This document shows, in pieces, positions 1 through 11,896 of a stretch of 11,896 nt of DNA (position 1 is its first letter; the number at the start of each line of letters is the position of its first letter). The stretch lies in the IMG/VR virus record IMGVR_UViG_3300039360_000021; one strand, given 5' to 3'. Below the pieces are notes generated by a model, which saw nothing but the letters and a program-made list of their open reading frames with translations, was not told the origin of the DNA and searched no databases. A program made the translations under genes and the position numbers. This DNA comes from a virus (taxonomy: Duplodnaviria; Heunggongvirae; Uroviricota; Caudoviricetes).

Positions 1-1
1 A

Positions 2-292
2 GGCAAGGACTGGAATAATCAGCAGAACATCTATCACCGTTGGTTAAAAGGTGAAACGGAAGCGCAAAGGGAAAAAATTCAGAAACTGATCCCTGCAATT
101 CTGGCAATCCTTCCGCGCGAGCTGCGTCACCGACTCTGCATCTTCGATACCCTGGAACGCCGTGCATTACTGGCGGCGCAGGAAGCGTTAAGTACGGCAA
201 TTGATGCGCATGATGATGCAGTCCAGGCCGTTTACCGGAAAGCGCATTTCAGCGGCGGCGGGTCTTCCGACGATTCTGTCATTGTTCATTAA
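2..292 (+). CDS. ydaT: 3' end of a YdaT-like prophage protein (partial; start lies upstream of the window)
   Basis: Open frame from the window edge to TAA at 290-292, translating to ...GKDWNNQQNIYHRWLKGETEAQREKIQKLIPAILAILPRELRHRL...SDDSVIVH. Sits directly upstream of the ydaU-like gene, matching the Rac order ydaT-ydaU-ydaV-ydaW. The symbol is assigned by synteny, not by a confirmed sequence match. Confidence 0.5.
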   Translation, partial: GKDWNNQQNIYHRWLKGETEAQREKIQKLIPAILAILPRELRHRLCIFDTLERRALLAAQEALSTAIDAHDDAVQAVYRKAHFSGGGSSDDSVIVH

Positions 293-304
293 GCAAAAGT
301 TTCC

Positions 305-1162
305 ATGCTGTTTGTGCTTATTCTAAGCCACCGGGCAGCATCATACGGGGCAATTATGGCCGCATTACCATACATGCAACTGTACATAGCTGATTACCTG
401 GCTGACACCATGCATTTGTCAGCAGAGGAGCATGGCGCGTATTTGTTGCTGATGTTCAATTACTGGCAAACAGGAAAGCCAATACCCAAAAACAGGCTGG
501 CAAAAATTGCCCGTCTGACTAACGAGCGATGGGCTGATGTTGAACCATCCTTGCGGGAGTTTTTTTGCGATAACGGCGAGGAATGGGTACATCTTCGGAT
601 TGAGGAAGATCTGGCATCAGTCAGGGAAAAATTAACCAAAAAATCAGCCGCAGGAAAAGCATCTGTTCAGGCCAGAAGAAGCAGAAAGGAAGCAGATGTT
701 CAAACAAAACAAGAGAGAAATTTAACAGGTGTTCAAACAGATGTTGAAGTGGTGTTTGAACATGATGTCAACACAAAGGCAACTAATAAAGATACAGATA
801 AAGATCTAAAAACAGCTCCCCCCCTAAATCCCCCCCGGGGGAATCGAGGTGTCAAAAAGTTTGACCCTCTGGATATTGCTTTGCCGAACTGGATTTCTGT
901 CTCGCTTTGGCGTGAGTGGGTTGAATTTCGCCAGGCATTGCGTAAACCGATTCGAACGGAGCAGGGCGCTAACGGGGCGATACGGGAGCTGGAAAAATTC
1001 CGCCAGCAGGGTTTTTCACCTGAGCAGGTGATTCGACACAGCATCGCCAACGAATACCAGGGCTTGTTCGCGCCGAAAGGTGTTCGACCTGAGACGTTAC
1101 TCCGACGGGTTAACACCGTTTCGTTACCGGACAGTGCGATCCCGCCAGGCTTCAGGGGGTAA
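305..1162 (+). CDS. ydaU: Rac-type replication protein YdaU-like (DUF1376-like N-terminal region)
   Basis: 285-aa ORF; the N-terminal sequence MAALPYMQLYIADYLADTMHLSAEEHGAYLLLMFNYWQTGKPIPK is what I recall for Rac YdaU. The first ATG at 305 has no Shine-Dalgarno; the internal ATG at 356 (MAALPYM) has a weak GGGG upstream and may be the true start. Stop is 7 bp before the next gene. Confidence 0.8.
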   Translation: MLFVLILSHRAASYGAIMAALPYMQLYIADYLADTMHLSAEEHGAYLLLMFNYWQTGKPIPKNRLAKIARLTNERWADVEPSLREFFCDNGEEWVHLRIEEDLASVREKLTKKSAAGKASVQARRSRKEADVQTKQERNLTGVQTDVEVVFEHDVNTKATNKDTDKDLKTAPPLNPPRGNRGVKKFDPLDIALPNWISVSLWREWVEFRQALRKPIRTEQGANGAIRELEKFRQQGFSPEQVIRHSIANEYQGLFAPKGVRPETLLRRVNTVSLPDSAIPPGFRG

Positions 1163-1168
1163 CTGACC

Positions 1169-1915
1169 ATGAAAAATATTGCGACAGGCGGCGTTCTTGA
1201 ACGTATCCGCAGACTGGCCCCGTCACATGTAACCGCGCCATTCAAGACGGTAGCGGAGTGGCGTGAGTGGCAACTTTCCGAAGGCCAGAAACGTTGTGAG
1301 GAGATCAACCGTCAGAATCGTCAGTTGCGGGTGGAAAAAATTCTGAATCGCTCTGGCATCCAGCCATTGCACCGCAAATGCTCGTTTGCGAATTACCAGG
1401 TGCAGAACGACGGTCAGCGATATGCGTTGAACCAGGCGAAATCTATCGCTGATGAACTGATGACCGGGTGTACAAATTTTGCGTTCAGCGGAAAACCTGG
1501 TACCGGAAAAAACCATCTGGCGGCGGCTATCGGGAATCGCCTGCTGAAAGATGGCCAGACAGTGATTGTGGTTACCGTGGCTGATGTCATGAGTGCTCTA
1601 CACGCTAGCTATGACGACGGGCAATCAGGCGAAAAATTTTTGCGGGAACTGTGCCAAGTGGATCTGCTGGTTCTTGATGAAATTGGCATTCAGCGCGAGA
1701 CAAAAAACGAGCAGGTGGTGCTGCACCAGATTGTTGATCGCCGGACAGCGTCGATGCGCAGCGTGGGGATGCTGACAAACCTGAACTATGAGGCCATGAA
1801 AACATTGCTCGGCGAGAGGATTATGGATCGCATGACCATGAACGGCGGGCGATGGGTGAATTTTAACTGGGAGAGCTGGCGTCCGAATGTCGTCCAGCTA
1901 GGAATTGCGAAGTGA
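1169..1915 (+). CDS. ydaV: DnaC/IstB-like AAA+ helicase loader (YdaV-like replication protein)
   Basis: 248-aa ORF with Walker A ([10 protein letters not shown]) and Walker B (LLVLDEIG) motifs, tightly coupled downstream of the ydaU-like gene. Confidence 0.85.
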
Positions 1916-1937
1916 TTTTTACCGGGAGGAAATTTTA

Positions 1938-2699
1938 ATGGAAACCGTTTTTGATGCACTGAAAGCAATGGGAAAAGCCACGTCGGTAGAACTGGCTGCG
2001 CGACTTGATATCAGTCGTGAAGAAGTGCTGAACGAGCTGTGGGAACTGAAAAAGGCTGGATTCGTTGATAAAAGCGTATACACCTGGCGTGTGGCCGATA
2101 ACAACGTTCAGCAGGAACATCCAGTGCCGGAAGAACAGCCGGAAGAAATCGCCACAGCAACAGTGACGAAAATATCGGAGTGCGATTTAACCGCGACGAT
2201 TGAACAACGTGGTCCACTAACTGCGGATGAACTGGCTACGTTGTTCGGTACCACATCACGCAAAGTGGCTTCAACGCTGGCAATGGCAATCAGCAAGGGG
2301 CGTCTGATTCGCGTAAATCAGAACGGTAAATTTCGTTACTGCATGCCGGGCGATAATTTACCAGCAGAACCGAAAGCTGCATTGGTAACGAAAAATGATG
2401 GTAAAGCCTTTCCTCAGCCAGCCGGTGCTGCGTTACCAGTACAGGAAGCGGCAACACAGGAAGATATTAAAACAGAAACTGTGGCGGACATTGTGCAGTC
2501 GCTGCCATCGTTTACTGAAACGCAAGCGGATGACTTGGTTTTACCATCGCTGCATATAGCAAACCGCGAACTGCGTCGGGCGAAAAATCATGTCCAGAAG
2601 TGGGAGCGTGTCTGCGCCGCGCTGCGGGAGCTGAACAAGCACCGGGATATTGTTCGACAGATTGTCGATTCCTCCAGTCGTATTGTGTCGGAAAAGTGA
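1938..2699 (+). CDS. ydaW: YdaW-like prophage protein, full length, with a probable N-terminal winged-helix region
   Basis: ATG at 1938 preceded by GGGAGGAAA with about 5-nt spacing; the ORF track frame starts earlier at 1905 without an SD. Position after ydaV matches Rac synteny. The N-terminal segment ([29 protein letters not shown]) resembles a wHTH. Symbol is assigned by synteny. Confidence 0.6.
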
Positions 2700-2714
2700 T
2701 TGCCGGAGGCGCTT

Positions 2715-3137
2715 ATGGCAAAAGTTTTTACACAGGAAGAGCGTGAAAAAATTAAGGAGCAGGTTGTTGAGCTGGTACGCCAGAGTGGGCGCGAGACGTT
2801 AAGGCAACTGGAGGCCAAGACAGGGGCGACAAGATATCTGATGAGCATTCTTGCCAGAGAGTTGGTTGCCAGTGGCGATGTATACAACTCTGGCTATGGG
2901 TTATTTACCTCTGAACAGGCTCGTAAGGACTGGAATAACGCCCGCAAAAAACTATCCAGGGCAAAGGTGAAAAAAACGGTTGTGGTTGATCCTGACCTTA
3001 TCTGGTCATTACCAGACGGAGAAATACGCCGATATGACGGGCGTCTGAATATAATCTGTAGCGAGTGCCGTAAGAGCGAAGTTATGAAGCGTGTACTGAT
3101 GTTTTATCGAGGAAGTATCCAGGAATTTATTCGGTAA
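2715..3137 (+). CDS. hypothetical phage protein
   Basis: ATG at 2715 preceded by GGAGG (2706-2710); the ORF is in frame from 2700, immediately after the ydaW-like stop. Basic C-terminal half. No family recognised. Confidence 0.55.
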   Translation: MAKVFTQEEREKIKEQVVELVRQSGRETLRQLEAKTGATRYLMSILARELVASGDVYNSGYGLFTSEQARKDWNNARKKLSRAKVKKTVVVDPDLIWSLPDGEIRRYDGRLNIICSECRKSEVMKRVLMFYRGSIQEFIR

Positions 3138-3184
3138 GCAAAATCAAAATGTAATCGCTCAAGTTTAAGTTGGTGTATCTACGG

Positions 3185-3217
3185 CGCAGAGCCATCGCCT
3201 CATCTGGCACTGCGCTA
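3185..3217. other. imperfect GC-rich inverted repeat between the 145-aa gene and the convergent minus-strand ORF (possible bidirectional terminator)
   Basis: GCGCAGAGCCA ... TGGCACTGCGC, about 10-bp arms with one mismatch, lying between two convergent ORFs. No clean U-tract. Confidence 0.3.
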
Positions 3218-3273
3218 AAATCAAATTTAGTTCCACTCTTTATTTCGTATCTGCTAAAACGCTACATAAAATT

Positions 3274-3546
3274 TTACTTTTTTAAAGAATAAGGGAATAT
3301 GTGCACCATATTGGAGGCTAGTGGATATATTCCTATGCTACGAGTTGTCTTTTTTAGTTGATCTATGCTTGCTTCTTTATCGGGAGCCCGGCCTCCCCAC
3401 ACTGTAACTCCCTCAGGTATATCGATTGGGCGACTTTTGTTTTCATCTGTGATTTCAATCGTTTCCCCATTATTAAGCGTAATAATCAACGATGACACGT
3501 CCAGGTGTTGTGTATTCCCATTTTTATTTTTAATGTCTATTTTCAT
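3274..3546 (-). CDS. hypothetical small protein (90 aa) in the AT-rich cargo island
   Basis: Minus-strand ORF with plausible amino-acid composition but no obvious SD. Opposite orientation to the prophage backbone and in an AT-rich context. No family recognised. Confidence 0.4.
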   Translation of the reverse strand: MKIDIKNKNGNTQHLDVSSLIITLNNGETIEITDENKSRPIDIPEGVTVWGGRAPDKEASIDQLKKTTRSIGIYPLASNMVHIFPYSLKK

Positions 3547-3816
3547 GGCTATTTCATTATATGTTATCTGTGCTGGAGTAATAAGTTTACAGTATTAAGA
3601 AGCATTTTGACGAAACAATCAACTGACTTATCAGCTAAGGTGGCATTGTAATGCGATCTGATTGGTATCATCAGGACGCTGTTCAAAAAAGGGGGATTAG
3701 TTGATCTTGAAATCTTGCTCAAAATGTGTAGCCTCTCGTTTAACTGCCAACTTTTTGGGGCAGTACACTCTGATGCTACACAACTTGCAAGTTTCATTAC
3801 CCCGACGTAAACATTT

Positions 3817-4485
3817 ATGACAGTTGCTGATTTCAAACGTCCTAAGTTGGAGCTCCCAAACGGGGCAAACAAACTACTATTACACTCTTGTTGTGCACCA
3901 TGTTCCGGTGAAGTGATGGAGGCTCTTCAGGCCTCAGGAATCGACTACACCATCTTCTTCTATAATCCGAACATTCATCCTCAGAAAGAGTATTTGATTC
4001 GTAAGAATGAGAATATTCGATTTGCTGAACAACATGGTGTACCGTTTATCGATGCTGATTACGACACTGACAACTGGTTTGAGCGAGCCAAAGGAATGGA
4101 ATGGGAGCCCGAACGTGGGAGGCGTTGTACTATGTGTTTTGACATGCGTTTTGAACGGACGGCGCTGTACGCCGCTGAAAATGGTTTCAGTGTGATCAGC
4201 AGTTCACTGGGCATTTCACGCTGGAAAAATATGCAGCAGGTTAACGACAGCGGACGGCGAGCTGTCGCACATTATCCGGGCATGGTGTACTGGGATTATA
4301 ACTGGCGCAAGCAGGGAGGCTCGTCCCGCATGATTGAAATCAGCAAACGCGAACAATTCTATCAGCAGGAATATTGTGGTTGCGTGTATTCACTTCGCGA
4401 TACCAATTTACACCGCAAATCCCAGGGACGCCCTCTTATCAAAATTGGTCAACTCCACTACGGTAAAGAAGAAGGGCAGGAATGA
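3817..4485 (+). CDS. queH: QueH-like epoxyqueuosine reductase (DUF208 family), putative Fe-S enzyme
   Basis: 222-aa ORF with the N-terminal motif [12 protein letters not shown] that I recognise as the DUF208/QueH signature, plus further conserved Cys pairs ([14 protein letters not shown]) consistent with metal/Fe-S ligation. Weak SD. AT-rich codon usage unlike the flanking phage genes. Confidence 0.7.
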
Positions 4486-4794
4486 TTTTTACATTACGTC
4501 AACAGAGTGTCACAACGTTTCTATATATGGTATGCCGACCGTAATTTTCGAATCATCATGACTAATAGGCAGGTCACCTATGCCAGCAATGACCTGCTCA
4601 TCTTGAAATTAGCAGAAATCTTGTAGCTATGATGTAGCTCAAAATAGTTTTTCATTCTTTTACCTGATGTCTGTTCCTGGCTGAAAACAGACTGTATTAT
4701 TTGATTACGCACCACTGACACTTGTGTATTGAAGTAGTGAGTACAAAGCCACATATTTATCAGTGTATGTATACGTCAAAAACAGGAGATTGTT

Positions 4795-4884
4795 GTGCTG
4801 GTTCTGAAGTGTGCGTTAGCAATAGTGGCTGTGGTGGCAATTTATTGCCTTGTTGTTGTTCTTATGGAGCGACTTTCTGATTGA
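4795..4884 (+). CDS. candidate small hydrophobic membrane peptide (29 aa)
   Basis: GTG start at 4795 preceded by AGGAG (4784-4788) with 6-nt spacing. Translation MLVLKCALAIVAVVAIYCLVVVLMERLSD is one predicted transmembrane helix plus a short acidic tail. Below the ORF-track size cutoff. Confidence 0.35.
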   Translation: MLVLKCALAIVAVVAIYCLVVVLMERLSD

Positions 4885-5029
4885 TTACATACTGGCTAAA
4901 AAAAAGCGTTTGCCTGGCTTATCTTTGTCCGGCAAGGTGCGCTCATTAATCTGAAGTAAATTTATTTCTTAAGTATTCAGATTACTTCTTATGGTCGAAG
5001 TCTCCTGGCAATGTAGAACCAAAATATTT

Positions 5030-5069
5030 ACAAAAACGAGACCCGTCGAGGATAGCTCTGCCGGGTCTG
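5030..5069 (-). terminator. rho-independent terminator downstream of the YeaR-like gene
   Basis: Perfect 7-bp stem AGACCCG (5039-5045) / CGGGTCT (5062-5068) with a long loop. On the minus strand the hairpin is followed by CGTTTTTGT. It lies about 30 bp past the stop of the minus-strand gene. Confidence 0.5.
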
Positions 5070-5097
5070 ATTGTTAAAGTATTTTTAATATGATCAT

Positions 5098-5436
5098 CTA
5101 TTTTTTGGTGCTATAGACTTTTTCGCCTGAGAAGTCTGGAGCGACCCAAAAGTTAATATTAAACTGAGCATCATCGCTTAGTTCAACACGGTGCCAGTAT
5201 TGTGGTGGGCTTGTTGCAAAAGAGCCAGCATTAATAACTACTTTTATCTCTGGTTCAGTAGTATTCTCATCAGCAAAACCATAATATGTTACAGTGCCTT
5301 CCATTACGCACAACTGCCCAAAAACACCTGCTGCTGTATTATGATGTGTTAATAACGCTGAAGGTACGTTCTCTTTTGTGAAGAACGGAGTTGAGCGTTT
5401 GATTACCCAATCTTTAGGAATTCTCTTGTGTGTCAT
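5098..5436 (-). CDS. DUF1971 family protein, YeaR-like
   Basis: Translation MTHKRIPKDWVIKRSTPFFTKENVPSALLTHHNTAAGVFGQLCVMEGTVTYYGFADE... resembles E. coli YeaR as I recall it. ATG at 5436 is preceded by TAGGAGGTGG with 5-nt spacing; the ORF track begins two codons earlier at a GTG. Confidence 0.8.
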   Translation of the reverse strand: MTHKRIPKDWVIKRSTPFFTKENVPSALLTHHNTAAGVFGQLCVMEGTVTYYGFADENTTEPEIKVVINAGSFATSPPQYWHRVELSDDAQFNINFWVAPDFSGEKVYSTKK

Positions 5437-5451
5437 AACCACCTCCTATAA

Positions 5452-5474
5452 AACATGTATTATAAATGCACCTT
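5452..5474 (-). promoter_or_regulatory. candidate NsrR-type operator (11-1-11 inverted repeat) upstream of the YeaR-like gene
   Basis: AACATGTATTA-T-AAATGCACCTT compared with the NsrR consensus as I recall it (AAGATGCATTT-N-AAATGCATCTT); the right half differs at one position and the left half at about three. On the minus strand a perfect TTGACA (+ strand 5486-5491) and perfect TATAAT (+ strand 5459-5464) flank it, but 21 bp apart, so the promoter geometry is non-canonical. Confidence 0.35.
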
Positions 5475-6307
5475 TTGAGGAGTTATGTCAAGCTCTTATG
5501 AAACACATAATTGATATGTTGATTAGAGGAGAAGATAGAATAAATATGGTTGTTTTTCGTATAACTACTTGTTTTGCTTTTGGTTTATGCATTCTGTGTG
5601 TTAGGAATAAGTTATTAAAGCTTAATCAAGAAATCTCGATGTATTCCACATAGATTACTGTTACTGAACCTTATTGTGTGCATTAGTTGTGTTCTGAAAT
5701 TTCAGCTTAATTATTTATGATATATTTTTTAACGATAAATATTTTCCCAGGTAAAAGACAGTTGGGAATAAGATAAGTAATATATCATTAATCTTGATTA
5801 TTCCCAGGGTACCTTTACTGTGCATATAAATAAATCATATATGCATCAAATAATGTAAAGGCATCCTTTTAGATATGTCTTATCAAATGTTAATGACTTG
5901 AGTGGGAAACATGATTCCAGCAACTTATCATGTGGCTACTTTATAAAAATAATGCCCATATAAAACAACAAGCGAAAAGGATTACGGATAAAAAAGGAGC
6001 GAGATGTGCAAACTTGTTATTTTCCATGTTTAACCACCTTAAATAATTGATGATGACGGGATGATTGCATCTGTAATGCTTTTATTGAAATGTTATGATA
6101 AAAAAGAACTTTTTCATAACATTAAAATGTAATTTAGCTAATCGTTTTTAATAATAAGTGTCGTATTTCTATCCTTGTACCAGCTATTTGATATGTAGTG
6201 TTTGTTCATGCTATGTGGGGCTTTACACCATAGCCAGTTTATTTATACTTTATTCGTCAGCCTGAACAACTGGCATCTGCTGCACTGCGCCATAGAGAGA
6301 TTGAGAA

Positions 6308-6907
6308 ATGGCGCATATACAACTGGTCAAACAAACTTCTTCTGGTTTACTTCTCCCGGCGACGCCGGAGAGTTGTGATTTTCTGCATCAAATTAAAATA
6401 GGCGAGTGGATACACGCTGATTTTAAGCGTGTGCGTAACTACGCATTCCACAAGCGTTTTTTCAAACTCCTGCAACTGGGATTCGATTACTGGACTCCGG
6501 TCGGTGGGGCGATCACGCCTCGCGAACGAGAACTGCTGTCTGGTTTCGTTGATTACCTGTGCGAATCAGTTGGTCGGGAACACACGCCAGCCCTGAGTGA
6601 TGCCGCAGAGCAATATCTGAATACAGTTGCGACACGCAGAACCCGGGATACGGCATTGCTAAAGTCGTTTGAGGCTTTTCGCGAGTGGGTAACCATTCAG
6701 GCTGGATTTTACACCGAACATTTTTATCCGGACGGTAGCCATGGGCGTCGGGCGAAATCCATAGCTTTTGCGAATATGGACGAAACCGAGTTTCAGCAGG
6801 TTTATAAATCTGTTCTGAATGTGCTGTGGAACTGGATTCTGTTCCGTAAATTTTCCTCTCTGGAACAAGTCGAAAATGTGGCCGCGCAGCTGCTGGAGTT
6901 TGCGTAA
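6308..6907 (+). CDS. lambdoid nin-region protein (possibly DUF1367 family)
   Basis: 199-aa ORF whose TAA stop overlaps the next ATG (TAATG at 6905-6909), indicating translational coupling. It is the first backbone gene after the AT-rich island. The family assignment is from memory and uncertain. Confidence 0.65.
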   Translation: MAHIQLVKQTSSGLLLPATPESCDFLHQIKIGEWIHADFKRVRNYAFHKRFFKLLQLGFDYWTPVGGAITPRERELLSGFVDYLCESVGREHTPALSDAAEQYLNTVATRRTRDTALLKSFEAFREWVTIQAGFYTEHFYPDGSHGRRAKSIAFANMDETEFQQVYKSVLNVLWNWILFRKFSSLEQVENVAAQLLEFA

Positions 6908-7197
6908 TGGTGGATTTACGTAAAGCGGCGCGGGGGCAGATGTGCACCGTCAGAATTCCTGGCTACTGCAATCACGATCCGGAAACGTCTGTGCTGGCGC
7001 ATTACCGACTGGCGGGAACGTGCGGAACAGCGACAAAACCACACGATATGCAGGCGGCGATTGCCGGTAGCTCATGCCACGATCTAATCGACGGGCGGGT
7101 AAAAACCAGCGATTACACCAAAGAAGAATTACGCCTGATGCATGCAGAAGGTGTTTTTCGCACACAAGAAATCTGGAGAAAGGAGGGATATTTGTGA
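6907..7197 (+). CDS. YbcO-like DUF1364 protein (putative Cys/His-rich nuclease of the nin region)
   Basis: 96-aa ORF beginning MVDLRKAARGQMCTVRIPGYCNHDPETSVLAHYRLAGTCGTATKPHD..., which resembles DLP12 YbcO as I recall it. Conserved Cys/His spacing. Its stop overlaps the next start (GTGA at 7194-7197). Confidence 0.7.
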   Translation: MVDLRKAARGQMCTVRIPGYCNHDPETSVLAHYRLAGTCGTATKPHDMQAAIAGSSCHDLIDGRVKTSDYTKEELRLMHAEGVFRTQEIWRKEGYL

Positions 7198-7811
7198 TTT
7201 ACCCAACGAATACAGGAAAAAGCGGAGAACACCTTCGTCTCGCCACGCTGGAAAGTGTCTGGATTCAGGGCAAACTGCGTATGTGGGGGCGCTGGTCGTA
7301 TATTGGCGGTGGCAGGTCAGGAAATATGTTCAATCAGTTGTTGGCATCCAAAAAATTGACGAAAACAGCCATCAATGAAGCCCTGCGCAGAATGAAAAAA
7401 GCGGGAATAGAGAAAGCTGAGCTGGAAGCGTTTTTGAGAGAGATGATCAACGGCAAGCAAAAGAGCTGGCTGGCGCATTGTACTGATGCAGAGGCGTTAT
7501 GTATTGATCGAGTCATAAGTGAGGTGCTGGCAGAGCATCCAGGATTGATTAGCGTCCTTCGGCAACGGTATGAGGGNNNNNNNNNNNNNNNNNNNNNNNN
7601 NNNNNNNNNNNNNNNNNNCCAGAGTGGTGTTTTAGCACATGCGAAAAGCGAATTGCTAATTGGTTGGCCGTTGCTGAGTATGCGCTATACATTCCCATGC
7701 GAGAATCATTCGCTCAAAAAACGGCTTGATTTTTTACGCATAAACTGCTTCAATTTTGCTACGCTTCGCAAAGCTGTATCGCGTGGCGAATCAGGCGCAA
7801 TTAAACTTTAA
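7194..7811 (+). CDS. late-gene antiterminator Q-like protein (interrupted by an N-run; extent uncertain)
   Basis: GTG at 7194 preceded by AGGAGGG (7181-7187); the ORF track frame starts earlier at 7074. It is the last backbone gene before the tRNA/lysis region. The N-terminal part (LRMWGRWSY...) loosely resembles the small Q family. The frame stays open across the 42-nt N-run (a multiple of 3) to TAA at 7809-7811, but if the true protein is the short type it ends inside the gap. Confidence 0.45.
   Translation: MIYPTNTGKSGEHLRLATLESVWIQGKLRMWGRWSYIGGGRSGNMFNQLLASKKLTKTAINEALRRMKKAGIEKAELEAFLREMINGKQKSWLAHCTDAEALCIDRVISEVLAEHPGLISVLRQRYEXXXXXXXXXXXXXXXQSGVLAHAKSELLIGWPLLSMRYTFPCENHSLKKRLDFLRINCFNFATLRKAVSRGESGAIKL
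7577..7618. other. run of 42 N (assembly gap or masked bases)
   Basis: Directly visible in the sequence; lies inside the Q-like reading frame. Confidence 1.
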
Positions 7812-7816
7812 TAGAA

Positions 7817-7836
7817 CCCGCATCGAGCGGGTTTTG
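7817..7836 (+). terminator. hairpin plus T-tract; probably the IS200 left-end internal terminator (alternatively a phage terminator after Q)
   Basis: Stem CCCGC (7817-7821) / GCGGG (7827-7831), loop ATCGA, then TTTTGTTGT. Begins 6 bp after the Q-frame stop. Confidence 0.45.
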
Positions 7837-7913
7837 TTGTGCACAGAAAACCCCCAGCTAGGCTGGGGGTTCCGGAAAGCTTTCAGCTTTGAGCCAGTTA
7901 TTAAAACCCCTTT

Positions 7914-7935
7914 NNNNNNNNNNNNNNNNNNNNNN
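7914..7935. other. run of 22 N (assembly gap or masked bases) within the IS200 left end
   Basis: Directly visible in the sequence. Confidence 1.
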
Positions 7936-7981
7936 GTCTGGCAACTGCAAGTGTCAAACAAGAAATCAAAAGGGGGTCCCA

Positions 7982-8440
7982 ATGGGGGACGAAAAGAGCT
8001 TAGCGCACACCCGCTGGAACTGTAAATATCACATAGTTTTTGCGCCGAAATACCGAAGACTGGCGTTTTACGGAGAGAAGCGTAGGGCGATAGGCAGTAT
8101 TTTGAGAAAGCTGTGTGAGTGGAAAAGCGTACGGATTCTGGAAGCAGAGTGCTGCGCAGATCATATCCATATGCTTGTGGAAATCCCACCCAAAATGAGC
8201 GTATCCGGCTTTATGGGATATCTGAAAGGGAAAAGCAGTCTGATGCTTTACGAGCAGTTTGGGGATTTGAAATTCAAATACAGAAACAGGGAGTTCTGGT
8301 GCCGAGGGTACTATGTCGATACGGTGGGTAAGAACACGGCGAAGATACAGGACTACATAAAGCACCAGCTTGAAGAGGATAAAATGGGGGAGCAGTTATC
8401 GATTCCATATCCGGGCGGCCCGTTTACGGGCCGTAAGTAA
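7982..8440 (+). CDS. tnpA: IS200 transposase TnpA (Y1/HuH single-strand transposase)
   Basis: ATG at 7982 with AAGGGGG upstream. Translation MGDEKSLAHTRWNCKYHIVFAPKYRR...HIHMLVEIPPK...WCRGYYVDTVGKNT... carries the HuH motif (HIH) and the catalytic Tyr region. Confidence 0.9.
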   Translation: MGDEKSLAHTRWNCKYHIVFAPKYRRLAFYGEKRRAIGSILRKLCEWKSVRILEAECCADHIHMLVEIPPKMSVSGFMGYLKGKSSLMLYEQFGDLKFKYRNREFWCRGYYVDTVGKNTAKIQDYIKHQLEEDKMGEQLSIPYPGGPFTGRK

Positions 8441-8521
8441 CGAAGTTGAATGCAAATGTCAGATCGTATGCGCCTGTTAGGGCGCGGCTGGTAACAGAGC
8501 CTTACAGGCGCATTTGAAAAA

Positions 8522-8556
8522 CCTCCGGCTATGCCGGAGGATATTTATTGTTTTTG
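8522..8556 (+). terminator. strong rho-independent terminator just right of IS200
   Basis: Perfect 8-bp stem CCTCCGGC (8522-8529) / GCCGGAGG (8533-8540) with loop TAT, followed by ATATTTATTGTTTTTG. It could instead be part of the IS200 right end. Confidence 0.5.
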
Positions 8557-8701
8557 TGGTGTGATATAAGAAACGACATTTAATAATTGCCTTCAAAATA
8601 AATTTGTTTATATATTGTCGCGTATATTTTAAATGAAGGTGAAATGTTCACATAAAATAAAAATACATAAATAAATTTACATAATTTGACGCAAAGTGTT
8701 G

Positions 8702-8729
8702 TTGCGATTGGAATATTAAATCGTATTAT
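8702..8729 (+). promoter_or_regulatory. candidate sigma70 promoter for the tRNA pair (possibly the late promoter region)
   Basis: TTGCGA (8702-8707), 16-bp spacer, TATTAT (8724-8729), with a very AT-rich upstream tract (about 8560-8700) resembling an UP element; about 60 bp upstream of the first tRNA. Read by eye only. Confidence 0.3.
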
Positions 8730-8792
8730 CGAAAACGGTTCTGAGGGGGAACTCTTCTTTGATCGGTGATATCGCTCCCCTGAAGAACCAAT

Positions 8793-8867
<75 letters not shown>

Positions 8868-8870
8868 TAT

Positions 8871-8945
<75 letters not shown>

Positions 8946-9308
8946 GCATTTGAAACAAGCCTTATTGTATTGCGGCACTGGCGTATTTTTTATTACGTGG
9001 GAGCAGGTTGTTTTGGAAAAGCATTCTGTTCTCTGGCTATAATTTGAGGCCAGGTGTAGCCTCAGTGCTGATTTTTTTACGACAGCAGAATGGTGCATTA
9101 TCGGTGGAGATTTTGTATTTCCTGGCAGGGTCGGTGATGCATCATTCTGGTGTTGTAAAAGCACCACAGAGGTGTTCCTCAGTGCGAGGGTGGTTTATAT
9201 AGTGGTTTAGCGGGGAATCACAATATTTGTTGTAGGGACAGATATTTCGGGAGGCACCCGACACCTCGATTTTTATTACAATTAAAATGATTTATCTTAT
9301 ACATTGAC

Positions 9309-9336
9309 CAACCGCCATATCTGGCGGTTTTTTTTA
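9309..9336 (+). terminator. rho-independent terminator between the tRNAs and the lysis genes (tR'-like)
   Basis: Stem ACCGCCA (9311-9317) / TGGCGGT (9322-9328), loop TATC, followed by a T-run (about 8 T). Confidence 0.6.
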
Positions 9337-9723
9337 TACCTGCATCAGACAAAAAAAGACACGAGCATCCAGGAATCCTCGTGGGACAACGTCCTTTAGA
9401 TAGCAATTTGCGAGAGGGTGAAAAGTAGCGCGGTCGTCGGATTAAGACCGCGGGACAAAGTCCATGAAGAATAATAAGTATTGGCCCCCTTCTGGGGACA
9501 TGTCCATACTACTAAGCTTCAGAAGTGGTTTAAATCATCAAATTAACCTTAATTTTCGATAAGTCTTATTTCATTTCTTTGCGCCACATCTGGCGCGCAT
9601 CAAATAACGCCACGCAAAGGGCATCTGCGGATGCCGGTGCTTTTGACGGGGTGTTTTTTACGGGCCGCTGGTGGCCATTTTTTGTTTCCGTTACACAGCG
9701 CCCGCATCTGCGAGGTGGGAGTT

Positions 9724-9939
9724 ATGAAATCCATGGATAAGTTAACAACGGGTGTCGCCTATGGCACCTCCGCAGGCAGTGCTGGCTACTGGTTTTTACA
9801 GTTGCTCGATAGAGTAACTCCGTCACAGTGGGCTGCAATCGGTGTGCTGGGTAGTCTGGTATTTGGCCTGCTGACGTACCTGACAAACCTTTATTTCAAG
9901 ATTAAAGAAGATAAGCGCAAGGCTGCACGGGGAGAGTAA
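9724..9939 (+). CDS. S: phage-21-type pinholin with dual-start motif (antiholin from Met1, holin from Met4)
   Basis: ATG at 9724 preceded by GAGGTGGGAG. Translation [71 protein letters not shown] resembles S21 as I recall it, with two TM segments and a basic C-terminus. Second in-frame ATG at 9733. The ORF track extends upstream to 9631 with no support. Confidence 0.85.
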
Positions 9940-9943
9940 TTCA

Positions 9944-10288
9944 ATGACTCAAAACTATGAAGTGATTATGAAAGGGATCCGCAATTTTGAGAATAAAGTT
10001 ACGGTAACTTTAGCGTTACGGGACAAAAAACGCTTTGACGGTGAAATTTTTGACCTGGACATCTCGCTGGACCGTGTTGAAGGTGCCGCGCTGGAGTTTT
10101 ATGAGGCAGCAGCCAGAAGGAGCATCAGACAGGTCTTCCTGGATGTTGCTGCCGGGTTATGTGAAGGGGATGGGCAGTCGCCGGAAAAGCGCCCCGTAAT
10201 TTTAGATGCGCAGAATGTGTGGATAACCTACAAAGGAAAGCTACCAGGAAGAATTACTAATTCTCTGAAGACTCCACCGAAATGGTAA
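9944..10288 (+). CDS. hypothetical protein inserted between holin and endolysin (114 aa)
   Basis: ATG 4 bp after the holin stop, preceded by GGGGAGAG, so probably co-transcribed with the late operon. No family recognised; it may correspond to small proteins found at this position in some E. coli prophages. Confidence 0.55.
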   Translation: MTQNYEVIMKGIRNFENKVTVTLALRDKKRFDGEIFDLDISLDRVEGAALEFYEAAARRSIRQVFLDVAAGLCEGDGQSPEKRPVILDAQNVWITYKGKLPGRITNSLKTPPKW

Positions 10289-10526
10289 TTTTACCAGCAT
10301 ATTTTTCTTCCAGTAATGCCGCCAGCCACTTGAAAGAATTTTGTTGTTCCTGGGACCATTTGGGGTTGCGTGATTCAAGCAAGAGCGATGCATGTGTTGG
10401 TTGCATTTGTTCTCTGGGAATTGATAAGGCCAGATATGAAAATGCAACAGTGAGGGCATTTACATCATCCCGAAGCTTGGAAATGCAGTCGAGCAACTCC
10501 TGTAGAGAAATGGTGTTATTGTCCAT
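10257..10526 (-). CDS. hypothetical protein (89 aa) convergent with, and overlapping by 32 bp, the 114-aa gene
   Basis: Minus-strand ORF with protein-like composition (MDNNTISLQELLDCISKLRDDVNALTVAFSYLALS...) and AGAGGA just upstream of its ATG. The overlapping plus-strand ORF 10282..10566 looks non-protein-like (Ser/Cys-rich). Confidence 0.4.
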   Translation of the reverse strand: MDNNTISLQELLDCISKLRDDVNALTVAFSYLALSIPREQMQPTHASLLLESRNPKWSQEQQNSFKWLAALLEEKYAGKITISVESSEN

Positions 10527-10631
10527 AAATAATCCTCTTGATTGTCTTTACCTTTTCCCCGCCTGATTCAACAGGCCGGGACAGATAAACATATCCAGGG
10601 TTCAGAAACCGATAAATCCTGATAAATATCC

Positions 10632-11165
10632 ATGAACGCAAAAATCAGATACGGCCTGTCGGCTGCCGTTCTGGCACTGATTGCCGTCGGTGCGCCTGCG
10701 CCTGATATTCTCGACCAGTTTCTGGATGAAAAAGAAGGTAACCACACAACGGCATACCGCGATGGTTCCGGCATCTGGACCATCTGTCGGGGTGCCACGG
10801 TGGTGGATGGAAAACCCGTTTTTCCCGGTATGAAACTGTCGAAGGAAAAATGCGACCAGGTTAACGCCATTGAACGGGATAAGGCGCTGGTATGGGTGGA
10901 GCGCAATATTAAAGTGCCACTGACCGAACCACAGAAAGCGGGTATAGCGTCATTTTGTCCCTATAACATTGGCCCCGGTAAGTGTTTCCCGTCGACGTTT
11001 TATAAGCGGATGAATGCTGGTGATCGTAAAGGTGCATGCGAGGCGATTCGCTGGTGGATTAAGGACGGTGGCCGTGATTGCCGCATTCGTTCAAATAACT
11101 GTTACGGTCAGGTTATTCGTCGTGACCAGGAAAGCGCATTAGCCTGTTGGGGAATAGATCAGTGA
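10632..11165 (+). CDS. R: SAR endolysin, T4-lysozyme-like (glycoside hydrolase family 24)
   Basis: N-terminal weakly hydrophobic Ala/Gly-rich segment ([15 protein letters not shown]) typical of a signal-anchor-release domain. Catalytic triad spacing E-x8-D-x5-T is present ([16 protein letters not shown]). Weak SD. Confidence 0.9.
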
Positions 11166-11629
11166 GCAGAGTCGCCGCGATTATTTATGCTCTGGTTATC
11201 TGCACTATCGTCTGCCTGTCGTGGGCGGTCAATCATTACCGTGATAACGCCATCGCCTACAAAGAACAACGTGATAAAAAAGTCAGTGAGCTGAAGCAGG
11301 CGATCGCCACCATCGCTGACATGCAGCAGCGTCAGCGTGATGTTGCTGCGCTCGATGCAAAGTACTCGAGAGAATTAGCCAATGCGAAAGCTGAAAATGA
11401 AACTCTGCGCGCTGATGTTGCCGCTGGTCGTAAGCGCCTGCGGGTCAATGCCAGTTGCTCCGCAGCCGTGCGTGAAGCCACCGGCCCCACCAGCGTGGAT
11501 AATGCAACCATCCCCCGACTGGCAGACACCGCTGAACGGGATTATTTCACCCTCAGAGACCGATTGATGACGATGCAGAAGCAACTGGAAGGGGCACAGC
11601 TATACATTCGTGAGCAATGCCTCAGATAA
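11162..11629 (+). CDS. Rz-like i-spanin (inner-membrane spanin subunit)
   Basis: GTG at 11162 overlapping the endolysin stop (GTGA); the ORF track frame begins at a TTG at 11147. N-terminal TM segment ([19 protein letters not shown]) then a coiled-coil-like region; resembles lambda Rz as I recall it. Corresponds by position to the rzpR remnant of K-12 Rac. Confidence 0.85.
11382..11567 (+). CDS. Rz1-like o-spanin lipoprotein, embedded in the +1 frame of Rz
   Basis: Translation [27 protein letters not shown]...[24 protein letters not shown] has a lipobox (LVVSAC) and a proline-rich mature region, and lies entirely inside the Rz gene in another frame. Confidence 0.8.
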
Positions 11630-11896
11630 AAACCGGCCAAGGATAATCCGCTGAAGATTTGCCGGCGGCGAAAGAGAGCCAAGGGTTCAGCCTACGCCAT
11701 TACTCCTGTCGATGCAATGCATTCAATGGATGCTTGATTTATTTCTGTGCGCTATATCGTCGCTGTCTCCTGCATTAACTATGACCGTAACTTGACGGGG
11801 AACCCCTTCTGCGTGAGTTTGCGGGAATAATCAAAAACGATGCACACCGGGTTTTACTGTGCTGACAGACGCAGGGTTACCCTCATAGTCGCTTTT

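What the first reader, a model, noticed from the sequence alone, without database searches (positions are those of the whole stretch)
3140..6300. AT-rich cargo island between the replication and nin/Q modules, carrying a QueH-like tRNA-modification gene
The backbone genes on either side are GC-balanced, tightly packed and on the + strand. This roughly 3.2-kb stretch is visibly AT-rich, has mixed gene orientation and long non-coding gaps, which points to a separately acquired moron island. Its largest gene (3817-4485) carries the LHSCCAPCS signature of DUF208/QueH, the cobalamin-independent enzyme for the last step of queuosine-tRNA synthesis. E. coli normally uses the cobalamin-dependent QueG for this step, so a prophage-borne queH could let a lysogen complete Q-tRNA without cobalamin. 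The same prophage also carries tRNA genes, so it may adjust host translation at two levels.
Basis: partly seen in the sequence, partly recalled or inferred. Interest (0 to 1): 0.65.

Follow-up and report, generated by a model that had tools for sequence, protein, structure and literature searches.

The report
Prophage-borne second queuosine-finishing enzyme (QueH)
A Rac-type E. coli prophage carries an intact, selectively maintained copy of QueH, the vitamin-B12-independent enzyme for the last step of queuosine-tRNA synthesis, alongside the host's own B12-dependent QueG; the gene is real and common (18% of complete E. coli genomes, and prophage-borne wherever its context was examined) but already annotated, so the finding is solid rather than surprising.

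Summary
Window 3138-6307 has 38% GC against about 50% in both flanks. It is only 43% coding and has genes on both strands. ORF 3817-4485 is a full-length QueH (Pfam PF02677, E=1e-65; PDB 7LC5, E=3e-22). It has every residue that was invariant in a 34-sequence family alignment, including the six cysteines.

- queH is accessory: 995 of 5426 complete E. coli genomes carry it, and it sat in a lambdoid prophage in all six annotated contexts. queG is in all 5426, so queH is a redundant, B12-independent bypass.
- It is 79-86% identical to QueH of other Enterobacterales, two of which were checked and are chromosomal. It is under strong purifying selection between prophage alleles (dN/dS about 0.05).
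- The "island" is not one acquisition. It is a mosaic at a cargo hot-spot whose blocks have different distributions (43, 995 and 457 genomes). queH itself is not AT-rich (47% GC), and the last 370 bp are a conserved leader of the nin/Q operon.
- The usual arrangement is DUF977 -> queH -> hokD. Here hokD is replaced by a DUF1971 module.
- The prophage tRNAs (Thr, Gly) are not queuosine substrates.

Expression in lysogens and any benefit are untested. RefSeq already names the gene QueH, and I found no paper on prophage QueH. This is a new member of a known kind, of moderate interest.

The parts
2700..3137 (+). DUF977 gene, the last backbone gene of the replication module and the left border of the cargo slot
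   Evidence: Pfam PF06163, E=8e-29. A DUF977 gene lies upstream of queH on the same strand in 75 of 80 IMG/VR loci.
3274..3546 (-). orf90, a 90-aa hypothetical protein from a family with no known relatives outside Enterobacteriaceae. It is the block specific to this island variant.
   Evidence: No Pfam, NCBIfam, PHROG or PADLOC hit. 14 homologs, named ones from E. coli, E. albertii, Citrobacter and Enterobacter. The block 3200-3760 is in 43 of 5426 genomes. The AlphaFold2 model has pLDDT 49, too low to use.
3769..3782 (+). Conserved element TCTGATGCTACAC(A), read as an extended -10-like promoter element (TGcTACACT in most alleles, TACACA here), about 37 nt upstream of the queH ATG. The promoter reading is an inference.
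   Evidence: Invariant in the 5-locus alignment, while homology to other queH loci starts only about 50 bp upstream of the ATG. The core ATGCTACACT occurs in alleles covering 76 of 80 IMG/VR loci; the 3 window-type loci have ATGCTACACA and one has ATGCTAGACT. The generic promoter scan did not report it.
3817..4485 (+). queH, epoxyqueuosine reductase (cobalamin-independent, Fe-S), 222 aa
   Evidence: Pfam PF02677, E=1.1e-65. PDB 7LC5, E=3e-22. All 15 invariant alignment columns are present. 79-86% identity to QueH of other Enterobacterales; the two contexts checked are chromosomal. dN/dS 0.044-0.054 between prophage alleles. N-terminal 33 codons show 6-8 synonymous versus 1 non-synonymous change. 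RefSeq WP_001595668.1 is named 'epoxyqueuosine reductase QueH'.
4568..4598 (+). Hairpin GGCAGGTCA-N13-TGACCTGCT followed by CAUCUUG, a weak candidate terminator downstream of queH
   Evidence: Conserved in phage HannyBb and E. coli B. Fold -14.6 kcal/mol, z=-1.4, which is not significant.
4795..4884 (+). Conserved 29-codon hydrophobic ORF (GTG start, AGGAG 6 nt upstream), MLVLKCALAIVAVVAIYCLVVVLMERLSD. A candidate small membrane protein.
   Evidence: 8 synonymous versus 3-5 conservative non-synonymous codon differences in three other loci, with the ribosome-binding site and start codon conserved. Annotated 'membrane protein' or 'conserved hypothetical' in E. coli B REL606. No family hit.
4898..4938 (-). 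Terminator-like hairpin plus U8 on the minus strand
   Evidence: Read from the sequence. Fold -11.9 kcal/mol, z=-0.6. Weak.
5030..5068 (-). Intrinsic-terminator-like hairpin (GACCCGG...CGGGUC followed by UCGUUUUUG) just downstream of the DUF1971 gene
   Evidence: Fold -15.9 kcal/mol, z=-2.77, reached by 3 of 200 shuffles.
5098..5442 (-). DUF1971 (YeaR/TehB-N-terminal-like) gene. RefSeq starts it at 5436.
   Evidence: Pfam PF09313, E=2.7e-26. PHROG 34268. In 457 of 5426 genomes, mostly without this queH allele. Present in Rac-type phage vB_EcoS-666R9.
5443..5939 (.). Very AT-rich (29.6% GC) non-coding stretch that travels with the DUF1971 module
   Evidence: No ORF of 40 aa or more apart from the tail of one mechanical ORF (5378-5653) that overlaps the DUF1971 gene on the other strand. 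No Rfam hit at E<=1. Closely similar in phage 666R9 and strain CI5, the latter with one internal deletion.
5940..6307 (+). Conserved leader of the DUF1367-DUF1364-DUF1133(Q) operon. It contains the promoter-like site TTTACA-16-TATACT (6222-6249) and an inverted repeat (6084-6128). This is backbone, not cargo.
   Evidence: About 76% identical in roughly 330 further genomes whose cargo differs, for example LY180. The promoter-like site matches 10 of 12 positions. Inverted repeat I2.
6308..6907 (+). DUF1367 gene (ninB position), the right border of the slot
   Evidence: Pfam PF07105, E=5.9e-96.

Best explanation
ORF 3817-4485 encodes a catalytically competent QueH. This is the Fe-S, cobalamin-independent tRNA epoxyqueuosine(34) reductase that converts oQ34 to Q34 in tRNA-Asp, -Asn, -His and -Tyr.

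The gene was captured from an Enterobacterales housekeeping lineage by Qin/Rac-type lambdoid phages. It sits in a fixed cargo slot directly after the DUF977 gene, on the early-right strand. Every E. coli already has the cobalamin-dependent QueG, and by textbook knowledge E. coli cannot make cobalamin de novo. The phage copy would therefore make the last step of queuosine synthesis independent of corrinoid supply, in lysogens and/or infected cells.

Shown here: identity, intactness, purifying selection, prophage-only context, and redundancy with QueG. Inferred: enzymatic activity in E. coli, transcription from a small extended -10-type promoter of its own (in addition to read-through from the early-right operon), and any fitness benefit.

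The surrounding AT-rich 'island' is not a unit. It is a recombination hot-spot filled with independent modules: orf90, queH with a 29-aa membrane-peptide ORF, DUF1971 with an AT-rich spacer, and then a conserved operon leader.
For: Family membership:
- Pfam QueH, full length, E=1.1e-65.
- T. maritima QueH structure 7LC5, E=3e-22 over residues 20-196.
- In alignment A3 (34 sequences, down to 33% identity) the invariant columns C25, C26, C104, C107, C187, C189, N52, E58, R62, E99, R103, K137, Q184, G188 and S192 are all present. C29 is the majority residue; T. maritima has Asp13 there.

Origin:
- 79-86% identity to QueH of Erwinia, Providencia, Proteus, Photorhabdus and Gibbsiella.
- Those genes lie in core chromosomal neighbourhoods: tmcA/purC in Providencia and purL/glnB/hmp/glyA in Erwinia.

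Selection:
- dN/dS 0.044-0.054 at dS 0.41-0.45 between prophage alleles.
- The N-terminal 33 codons that carry the CCAPC motif show 6-8 synonymous versus 1 non-synonymous change.

Distribution:
- queH is in 995 of 5426 complete E. coli genomes. queG is in 5426 of 5426.
- Every annotated context examined is a lambdoid prophage or phage: strain 746, strain 2/0, E. coli B, O157:H7, ST131 and phage HannyBb.
- 80 of 80 IMG/VR loci have queH on the same strand as the flanking phage genes; 75 of the 80 have a DUF977 gene upstream and 66 have hokD downstream.

Other:
- The conserved upstream element ATGCTACACT is present in alleles covering 76 of 80 loci.
- Cobalamin dependence of the QueG step is stated in PMC4646009, citing Frey 1988. 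QueG and QueH are described as redundant enzymes with different cofactors in PMC13443448.
Against: - No activity, transcript or tRNA-modification data exist for this gene.
- There is no Shine-Dalgarno sequence before the ATG.
- The generic promoter scan found no plus-strand promoter upstream of queH. In this window the putative -10 hexamer is TACACA, lacking the conserved final T.
- The downstream hairpin is not a convincing terminator (z=-1.4), so the classic moron signature of own promoter plus terminator is not demonstrated.
- queG deletion gives no growth phenotype in the one setting reported (a delta-metE strain grown with cobalamin or pseudocobalamin; PMC11841063), so the value of Q over oQ is unclear.
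- NAU/NAC codon usage of the prophage (55-60% NAU) is not clearly different from a small host sample (53%).
Confidence: 0.72

Rival explanations
1. QueH is a lytic-cycle gene, not a lysogenic-conversion gene. It is transcribed only as part of the early-right operon after induction, and it serves the phage by keeping newly made GUN-anticodon tRNAs fully matured to Q during replication, tuning NAY codon decoding of phage genes.
For: queH is on the early-right strand, directly after DUF977, in 75 of 80 loci, with a gap of 177-178 bp in 49 of them. No convincing intrinsic terminator separates it from the replication genes. No consensus promoter was detected.
Against: The prophage's NAU fraction (55-60%) is not clearly above host genes (53%). 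A short lytic window gives little time for a change in tRNA modification to matter. The conserved TGcTACACT element upstream suggests autonomous transcription. In this window an opposite-strand gene (orf90) lies between DUF977 and queH.
Confidence: 0.2
2. queH is a functionally neutral passenger. It persists because it sits in a recombination hot-spot next to an addictive hok/sok module, not because Q-tRNA maturation benefits phage or host.
For: hokD follows queH in 66 of 80 viral loci, at a fixed distance of 224-238 bp in 57 of them. queG is universal, so queH is redundant. No phenotype is reported for loss of QueG (PMC11841063).
Against: dN/dS is about 0.05 at dS about 0.4 between prophage alleles, and all catalytic-site columns are intact. 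A neutral passenger would accumulate non-synonymous and disruptive changes. 985 of 995 hits are full length. In this window queH persists without hokD.
Confidence: 0.08
3. The whole 3.2-kb AT-rich stretch is a single horizontally acquired moron island.
For: There is a continuous GC trough. The complete arrangement is found at 99% identity or more in 43 genomes.
Against: The blocks have different distributions: orf90 block 43 genomes, queH 995, DUF1971 457, and the leader in roughly 330 more. queH is 47% GC. The junctions at about 3768, 4725-4747, 4898 and 5940 coincide with breaks in homology to other prophages. The slot holds other cargo elsewhere: an NgoMIV-type restriction-modification system, DUF262 plus an AAA ATPase, and hokD.
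Confidence: 0.05
4. The protein acts on a substrate other than tRNA-oQ, for example a 7-deazaguanine DNA modification or a defence or counter-defence function, given that it sits in a hot-spot that elsewhere holds defence genes.
For: The same slot carries restriction-modification and DUF262/AAA cargo in other prophages.
Against: It is 79-86% identical to QueH of other Enterobacterales, chromosomal in the two contexts checked. There is no PADLOC hit. No DpdA/Tgt-like or preQ0-pathway gene is present in the window or in prophage locus L001.
Confidence: 0.03

Closest known systems
QueH (DUF208/PF02677) epoxyqueuosine reductase, e.g. Thermotoga maritima QueH (PDB 7LC5) and the chromosomal QueH of Erwinia, Providencia and Photorhabdus
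   Same: Full-length domain. Six invariant cysteines (CC..CxxC..CxC) and all other invariant columns. 79-86% identity to QueH of other Enterobacterales, chromosomal in the two contexts checked, and 33% to the solved T. maritima enzyme.
   Different: It is encoded in a temperate phage or prophage rather than at a housekeeping locus. It always co-occurs with QueG, instead of replacing it as is usual. It has Cys29 where T. maritima has Asp13, but Cys is the family majority.
QueG (E. coli yjeS), the cobalamin-dependent epoxyqueuosine reductase
   Same: Same reaction, oQ34 to Q34 in tRNA (PMC5372724, PMC9508795).
   Different: Unrelated fold and cofactor (cobalamin plus two 4Fe-4S clusters). Core gene in 5426 of 5426 E. 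coli genomes, whereas queH is accessory (18%).
Lambdoid-phage morons and lysogenic-conversion cargo
   Same: Inserted between conserved backbone genes. Absent from related prophages. The slot is shared with other cargo (hok/sok, a restriction-modification system, DUF262/AAA).
   Different: queH is co-oriented with the early operon. It has no demonstrated terminator or consensus promoter, and it is not compositionally deviant.
Phage-encoded queuosine/7-deazaguanine genes (folE, queC, queD, queE, dpdA clusters)
   Same: Phage carriage of a queuosine-pathway enzyme derived from the host.
   Different: Those clusters make preQ0-type bases, largely for modifying phage DNA (my own knowledge). Here a single late-pathway enzyme that acts on tRNA-bound oQ is carried, with no partner genes.
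Staphylococcus aureus, which encodes both QueG and QueH (PMC13443448)
   Same: Two redundant oQ reductases with different cofactors in one cell, proposed to track cofactor availability.
   Different: Both appear to be treated as the bacterium's own genes in S. aureus (their genomic location was not checked here). In E. coli the second enzyme arrives on a prophage.

Membership tests
QueH (PF02677, epoxyqueuosine reductase) | Full-length match to the family profile above the curated threshold | tested here: met
   221.5 bits against a cut-off of 23.5, E=1.1e-65, profile positions 1-174 of 175.
QueH (PF02677, epoxyqueuosine reductase) | Conserved cysteine set that binds the metal centres (CCxP[C/D] ... 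CxxC ... CxC) | tested here: met
   C25, C26, C104, C107, C187 and C189 are invariant in 34 diverse sequences and present here. C29 is the residue found in at least 90% of them; T. maritima has Asp13. Which residue binds which metal could not be checked because Li et al. 2021 is not held in the library.
QueH (PF02677, epoxyqueuosine reductase) | Significant sequence similarity to an experimentally solved or characterised QueH | tested here: met
   7LC5/7LC7/9DEU T. maritima QueH, E=3e-22, query residues 20-196 aligned to chain residues 4-178.
QueH (PF02677, epoxyqueuosine reductase) | Reduces oQ-tRNA to Q-tRNA without cobalamin | not testable with these tools
   Needs delta-queG complementation and LC-MS/MS of tRNA nucleosides.
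QueH (PF02677, epoxyqueuosine reductase) | Usual phyletic pattern: replaces QueG in genomes that lack it. This is typical of the family, not defining. | tested here: not met
   queG is present in 5426 of 5426 E. coli genomes, including all queH carriers. Coexistence is also known in S. aureus (PMC13443448).
Phage moron | Present in some and absent from other closely related phage genomes, at a backbone gene boundary | tested here: met
   Rac-type phage 666R9 and strain CI5 lack queH but share the flanks. queH is in 995 of 5426 genomes.
Phage moron | Own promoter and terminator, forming an autonomous transcription unit | tested here: inconclusive
   A conserved TGcTACACT element lies upstream, but the consensus scan is negative and the downstream hairpin is weak.
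Phage moron | Nucleotide composition distinct from the backbone | tested here: not met
   For queH itself: 47.2% GC against 49.7-49.9% backbone. The feature is met for the orf90 and DUF1971 blocks (38-40%) and the spacer (29.6%).
Phage moron | Expressed from the repressed prophage | not testable with these tools
   No transcript data are available here.
Type I toxin or small membrane protein (for ORF 4795-4884) | Short hydrophobic peptide with a ribosome-binding site, conserved as a coding sequence | tested here: met
   29 aa. AGGAG lies 6 nt upstream of the GTG start. 8 synonymous versus 3-5 non-synonymous codon differences.
Type I toxin or small membrane protein (for ORF 4795-4884) | Cognate antisense RNA and toxicity on overexpression | not tested
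   No Rfam hit in the region. No systematic antisense analysis was done. Toxicity needs an experiment.

The most novel reading that the evidence does not exclude
Prophage QueH uncouples queuosine maturation from corrinoid uptake. Lysogens, which make up 18% of complete E. coli genomes and include E. coli B/BL21, ST131 and some O157:H7, would then carry Q rather than oQ when B12 is scarce. The same would hold when the BtuB receptor, which is also a phage and colicin receptor, is lost or repressed. Lambdoid phages would thereby create a strain-level difference in the tRNA epitranscriptome and in translation of NAY codons. A corollary is that K-12 and B laboratory strains differ in oQ/Q content in B12-free media for this reason.
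Probability: 0.3. Interest if true: 0.6.

Novelty: new member of a known kind. Interest (0 to 1): 0.35.

Why it matters
Queuosine influences decoding of Asp, Asn, His and Tyr codons. Its last step in E. coli depends on a vitamin the bacterium cannot make. A widespread prophage gene that removes this dependence would be a clean example of lysogenic conversion acting on the tRNA epitranscriptome. It would also explain strain-to-strain differences in oQ/Q, for example between B and K-12 laboratory strains.

On the practical side, phage resources still list this family as 'unknown function'. PHROG 3217's profile starts at Met34, downstream of the CCAPC motif, and phage HannyBb annotates the gene as a hypothetical protein. 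The annotation can therefore be transferred and the start codon corrected.

The finding does not reveal a new mechanism. The enzyme family and the moron concept are both established, and RefSeq already names the gene.

Tried and rejected
1. Literature. Seven full-text searches (QueH+prophage, QueH+4Fe-4S, DUF208+queuosine, QueH alone, epoxyqueuosine+cobalamin+QueG, queuosine+phage-encoded/auxiliary-metabolic, and DUF208/COG1636/PF02677) found no paper on prophage-borne QueH in E. coli. Apparent hits were author names (Quehenberger, Quehl) or unrelated. The key papers (Zallot 2017, Li 2021, Miles 2011, Frey 1988) are not held, so the assignment of ligands to metals could not be checked against the structure paper.

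2. Codon-usage test of a benefit to phage translation. The NAU fraction is 55-60% in prophage gene groups against 53% in seven host genes. This gives no informative signal.

3. Defence-system reading. There are no PADLOC hits for queH, orf90 or DUF1971.

4. orf90. There are no family hits. The homolog set is shallow (14 proteins) and the AlphaFold2 model has pLDDT 49, so no fold search was run.

5. Rfam at permissive E-value. Nothing falls inside 3138-6307.

6. Flanking direct repeats as insertion scars. Only short two-copy matches were found, for example a 16-mer at 3140 and 6118 with 88% identity. I judged these to be chance.

7. Generic promoter and terminator scan of the island. The counts are at or below the shuffle expectation (7 against 11.1, and 2 against 2.3).

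8. RNA folds of the DUF977/orf90 intergenic region and of the queH downstream hairpin. Neither is significantly more stable than shuffled sequence.


Full report
**Where the window comes from.** Window 1-7576, 7619-7840 and 8544-11896 match the chromosome of E. coli strain 746 (NZ_CP023353.1) at 99.97-100% identity. The window carries one extra 703-bp insertion. In strain 746 the region is a Rac-type lambdoid prophage integrated next to ttcA. Its gene order is intR, xisR, ralR, recT, recE, kilR, repressor/cro, ydaT, ydaU, ydaV, DUF1627, DUF977, then the finding, then DUF1367, DUF1364, DUF1133 (Q-like), tRNA-Thr, tRNA-Gly, lysis genes and terminase.

**Checking the observation.**
- GC falls from 49.7% (305-3137) to 38.4% across 3138-6307 and returns to 49.9% (6308-7576). 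The minimum is 29.6% in 5443-5939.
- The stretch is 43% coding. It has genes on both strands and several gaps of 200-860 bp.
- ORF 3817-4485 (222 aa) carries L22-HSCCAPCS-S30 and matches Pfam QueH PF02677 over the whole profile (E=1.1e-65).
- So the description is correct, with two qualifications. queH itself is 47.2% GC, close to the backbone. The last 370 bp (5940-6307) is a conserved leader of the DUF1367 operon, present at about 76% identity in roughly 330 more genomes whose cargo differs.

**What the gene is.**
- The protein hits the solved T. maritima QueH (7LC5) at E=3e-22.
- I aligned it with 33 other sequences: the T. maritima chain, three close Enterobacterales QueH proteins, and 29 representatives from the 1.84-billion-protein library. 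Identity to the query went down to 33%.
- Fifteen columns are invariant (C25, C26, N52, E58, R62, E99, R103, C104, C107, K137, Q184, C187, G188, C189, S192) and the window protein has all of them.
- Position 29 is Cys in at least 90% of the sequences. T. maritima is the exception with Asp13.
- The nearest relatives outside the E. coli prophage cluster are QueH of Erwinia, Providencia, Proteus, Photorhabdus, Gibbsiella and others, at 79-86% identity.
- In Providencia and Erwinia those genes lie in ordinary chromosomal neighbourhoods: tmcA/purC in one, purL/glnB/hmp/glyA in the other. The phage gene is therefore a captured housekeeping-type QueH, not a divergent paralog.
- Between the window allele and four other prophage or phage alleles, dS is 0.41-0.45 and dN/dS is 0.044-0.054.
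- The first 33 codons, which hold the CCAPC motif, differ by 6-8 synonymous and 1 non-synonymous codon. The ATG at 3817 is therefore the functional start.
- This matters because PHROG 3217 ('unknown function', E=9e-134) starts at Met34, and phage HannyBb annotates the gene as hypothetical.

**Distribution and context.**
- queH occurs in 995 of 5426 complete E. coli genomes, full length in 985. There are two allele groups: 99% or more in 43 genomes, and 90-95% in 952.
- queG occurs in all 5426.
- Every annotated context examined is a Qin/Rac-like lambdoid prophage or phage: strain 2/0, E. coli B, O157:H7 Z1486, ST131 and the isolated phage HannyBb.
- IMG/VR holds 216 viral contigs with a relative. 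In the best 80, queH is always co-oriented with the flanking phage genes; DUF977 lies upstream in 75, with a gap of 177-178 bp in 49 of them. hokD follows in 66, at 224-238 bp in 57 of them.
- The window-type arrangement (orf90, queH, small ORF, DUF1971) occurs in 3 of the 80.

**The island is a mosaic.** The blocks have different distributions.
- The orf90 block (3200-3760) is in 43 genomes.
- queH is in 995 genomes.
- The DUF1971 gene is in 457 genomes.
- The complete island is in 43 genomes.
- Homology to other queH loci starts only about 50 bp before the ATG, near 3768.
- The 4490-4898 segment is shared with HannyBb and E. coli B, where the hok locus follows.
- From 4725-4747 onward the sequence is shared with Rac-type elements that lack queH, such as strain CI5; Rac-type phage 666R9 shares it from about 5097.
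- In other prophages the same slot holds an NgoMIV-type restriction-modification pair or DUF262 plus an AAA ATPase plus hok.
- This is a cargo hot-spot, not a single acquired island.

**Expression signals.**
- queH has no Shine-Dalgarno sequence. The generic scan finds no plus-strand promoter before it.
- The only strongly conserved upstream element is TCTGATGCTACAC. Its core ATGCTACACT is present in alleles covering 76 of 80 viral loci; the 3 window-type loci have ATGCTACACA and one has ATGCTAGACT. It reads as an extended -10 (TGn-TACACT), and here the hexamer is TACACA.
- I take this as a weak, inferred autonomous promoter.
- No convincing terminator separates queH from the replication genes, so read-through from the early-right operon after induction is also likely.
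- The hairpin after queH (4568-4598) is not significant.
- By contrast, the DUF1971 gene on the minus strand has a good terminator at 5068->5030 (z=-2.77).

**Mechanism proposed.**
- Shown: an intact QueH under purifying selection, carried by temperate phages, in cells that already have QueG.
- Established: QueG and QueH catalyse the same oQ-to-Q step with different cofactors (PMC5372724, PMC9508795, PMC13443448), and that step is cobalamin-dependent in E. coli (PMC4646009, citing Frey 1988). That E. coli cannot synthesise cobalamin de novo is textbook knowledge of my own.
- Inferred: the phage gene makes Q maturation independent of corrinoid supply.
- Undetermined: whether the beneficiary is the lysogen or the replicating phage.
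- Codon usage gives no hint. The one reported queG deletion has no growth phenotype (PMC11841063). The low dN/dS argues against a neutral passenger.

The prophage tRNAs are Thr(UGU) and Gly(UCC). In other queH prophages they are Ile and Arg. None of these is a queuosine substrate, so the 'two levels' idea has no mechanistic link.

**Novelty.** RefSeq/PGAP already calls the protein 'epoxyqueuosine reductase QueH'. No paper in the searchable library discusses prophage-borne QueH. I rate it a new member of a known kind, solid and of moderate interest. It makes one simple, testable prediction: queH+ strains such as E. coli B should carry Q where K-12 carries oQ in B12-free medium.

Noticed in passing
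window 4795-4884 (+): An unannotated 29-codon hydrophobic ORF (MLVLKCALAIVAVVAIYCLVVVLMERLSD) with AGGAG 6 nt before a GTG start. It is conserved in HannyBb, E. coli B and strain CI5 with 8 synonymous versus 3-5 conservative non-synonymous codon changes. In HannyBb and B it sits immediately upstream of the hokD/mok locus. Some GenBank records call it 'membrane protein'. It could be a small membrane protein or a type I toxin-like peptide.
   Followed up: partly
window 7841-8543: A 703-bp insertion relative to strain 746, between the Q-like gene's terminator hairpin and the tRNA genes. It is an IS200-type element: the tnpA ORF is at 7889-8440 and there is an Rfam STnc490 (IS200 5' RNA) hit at 7849-7972, 73.9 bits.
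   Followed up: partly
window 7577-7618 and 7914-7935: Two runs of N (42 and 22 bases), inside the Q-like DUF1133 gene and inside the IS200 5' region. The first replaces 49 bases of the strain 746 sequence, so its length is not preserved.
   Followed up: partly
window 5940-6307: A conserved AT-rich leader upstream of DUF1367. It has a strongly conserved promoter-like site, TTTACA-16-TATACT (6222-6249, 10 of 12 positions), and a 19-nt inverted repeat (6084-6102 / 6110-6128). It is shared by prophages with unrelated cargo, which suggests the nin/Q operon has its own promoter or operator.
   Followed up: partly
window 3817-3915; PHROG 3217: The phage protein family PHROG 3217 ('unknown function') is QueH, but its profile begins at Met34, so the phage gene calls behind it probably omit the CCAPC motif. 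Phage HannyBb annotates the gene as hypothetical. This is an annotation gap and a start-site error in phage resources.
   Followed up: yes
L005 7851-9861; L014 1-2122; L002 10953-11108: The same slot (after DUF977/queH, before the nin/Q genes) carries a Dcm plus NgoMIV-type restriction-modification pair in O157:H7 Z1486, DUF262 plus an AAA ATPase plus a hypothetical gene in LY180, and hokD in most loci. It is a defence and toxin-antitoxin cargo hot-spot.
   Followed up: partly
window 8793-8945: tRNA-Thr(UGU) and tRNA-Gly(UCC) lie downstream of the Q-like gene. Neither is a queuosine substrate.
   Followed up: yes
window 3274-3546 (-): A 90-aa ORF from a small family with no known relatives outside Enterobacteriaceae (E. 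coli, E. albertii, Citrobacter, Enterobacter). It has 36 invariant positions but no detectable family, and its AlphaFold2 model is low-confidence (pLDDT 49).
   Followed up: partly
L002 10715-10760 and L005 7666-7710: In the commonest queH allele, the queH stop codon is followed within a few bases by the last seven codons of the 29-aa ORF (ATGGATCACCTTTCTGATTGA). This indicates a deletion of about 300 bp that removed the queH 3' region and most of the small ORF.
   Followed up: partly
window 5745-5808; L008: The octamer TTCCCAGG occurs twice, 56 bp apart, in the AT-rich spacer. Strain CI5 has a deletion of roughly the intervening sequence, consistent with slippage or recombination between the repeats.
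   Followed up: no
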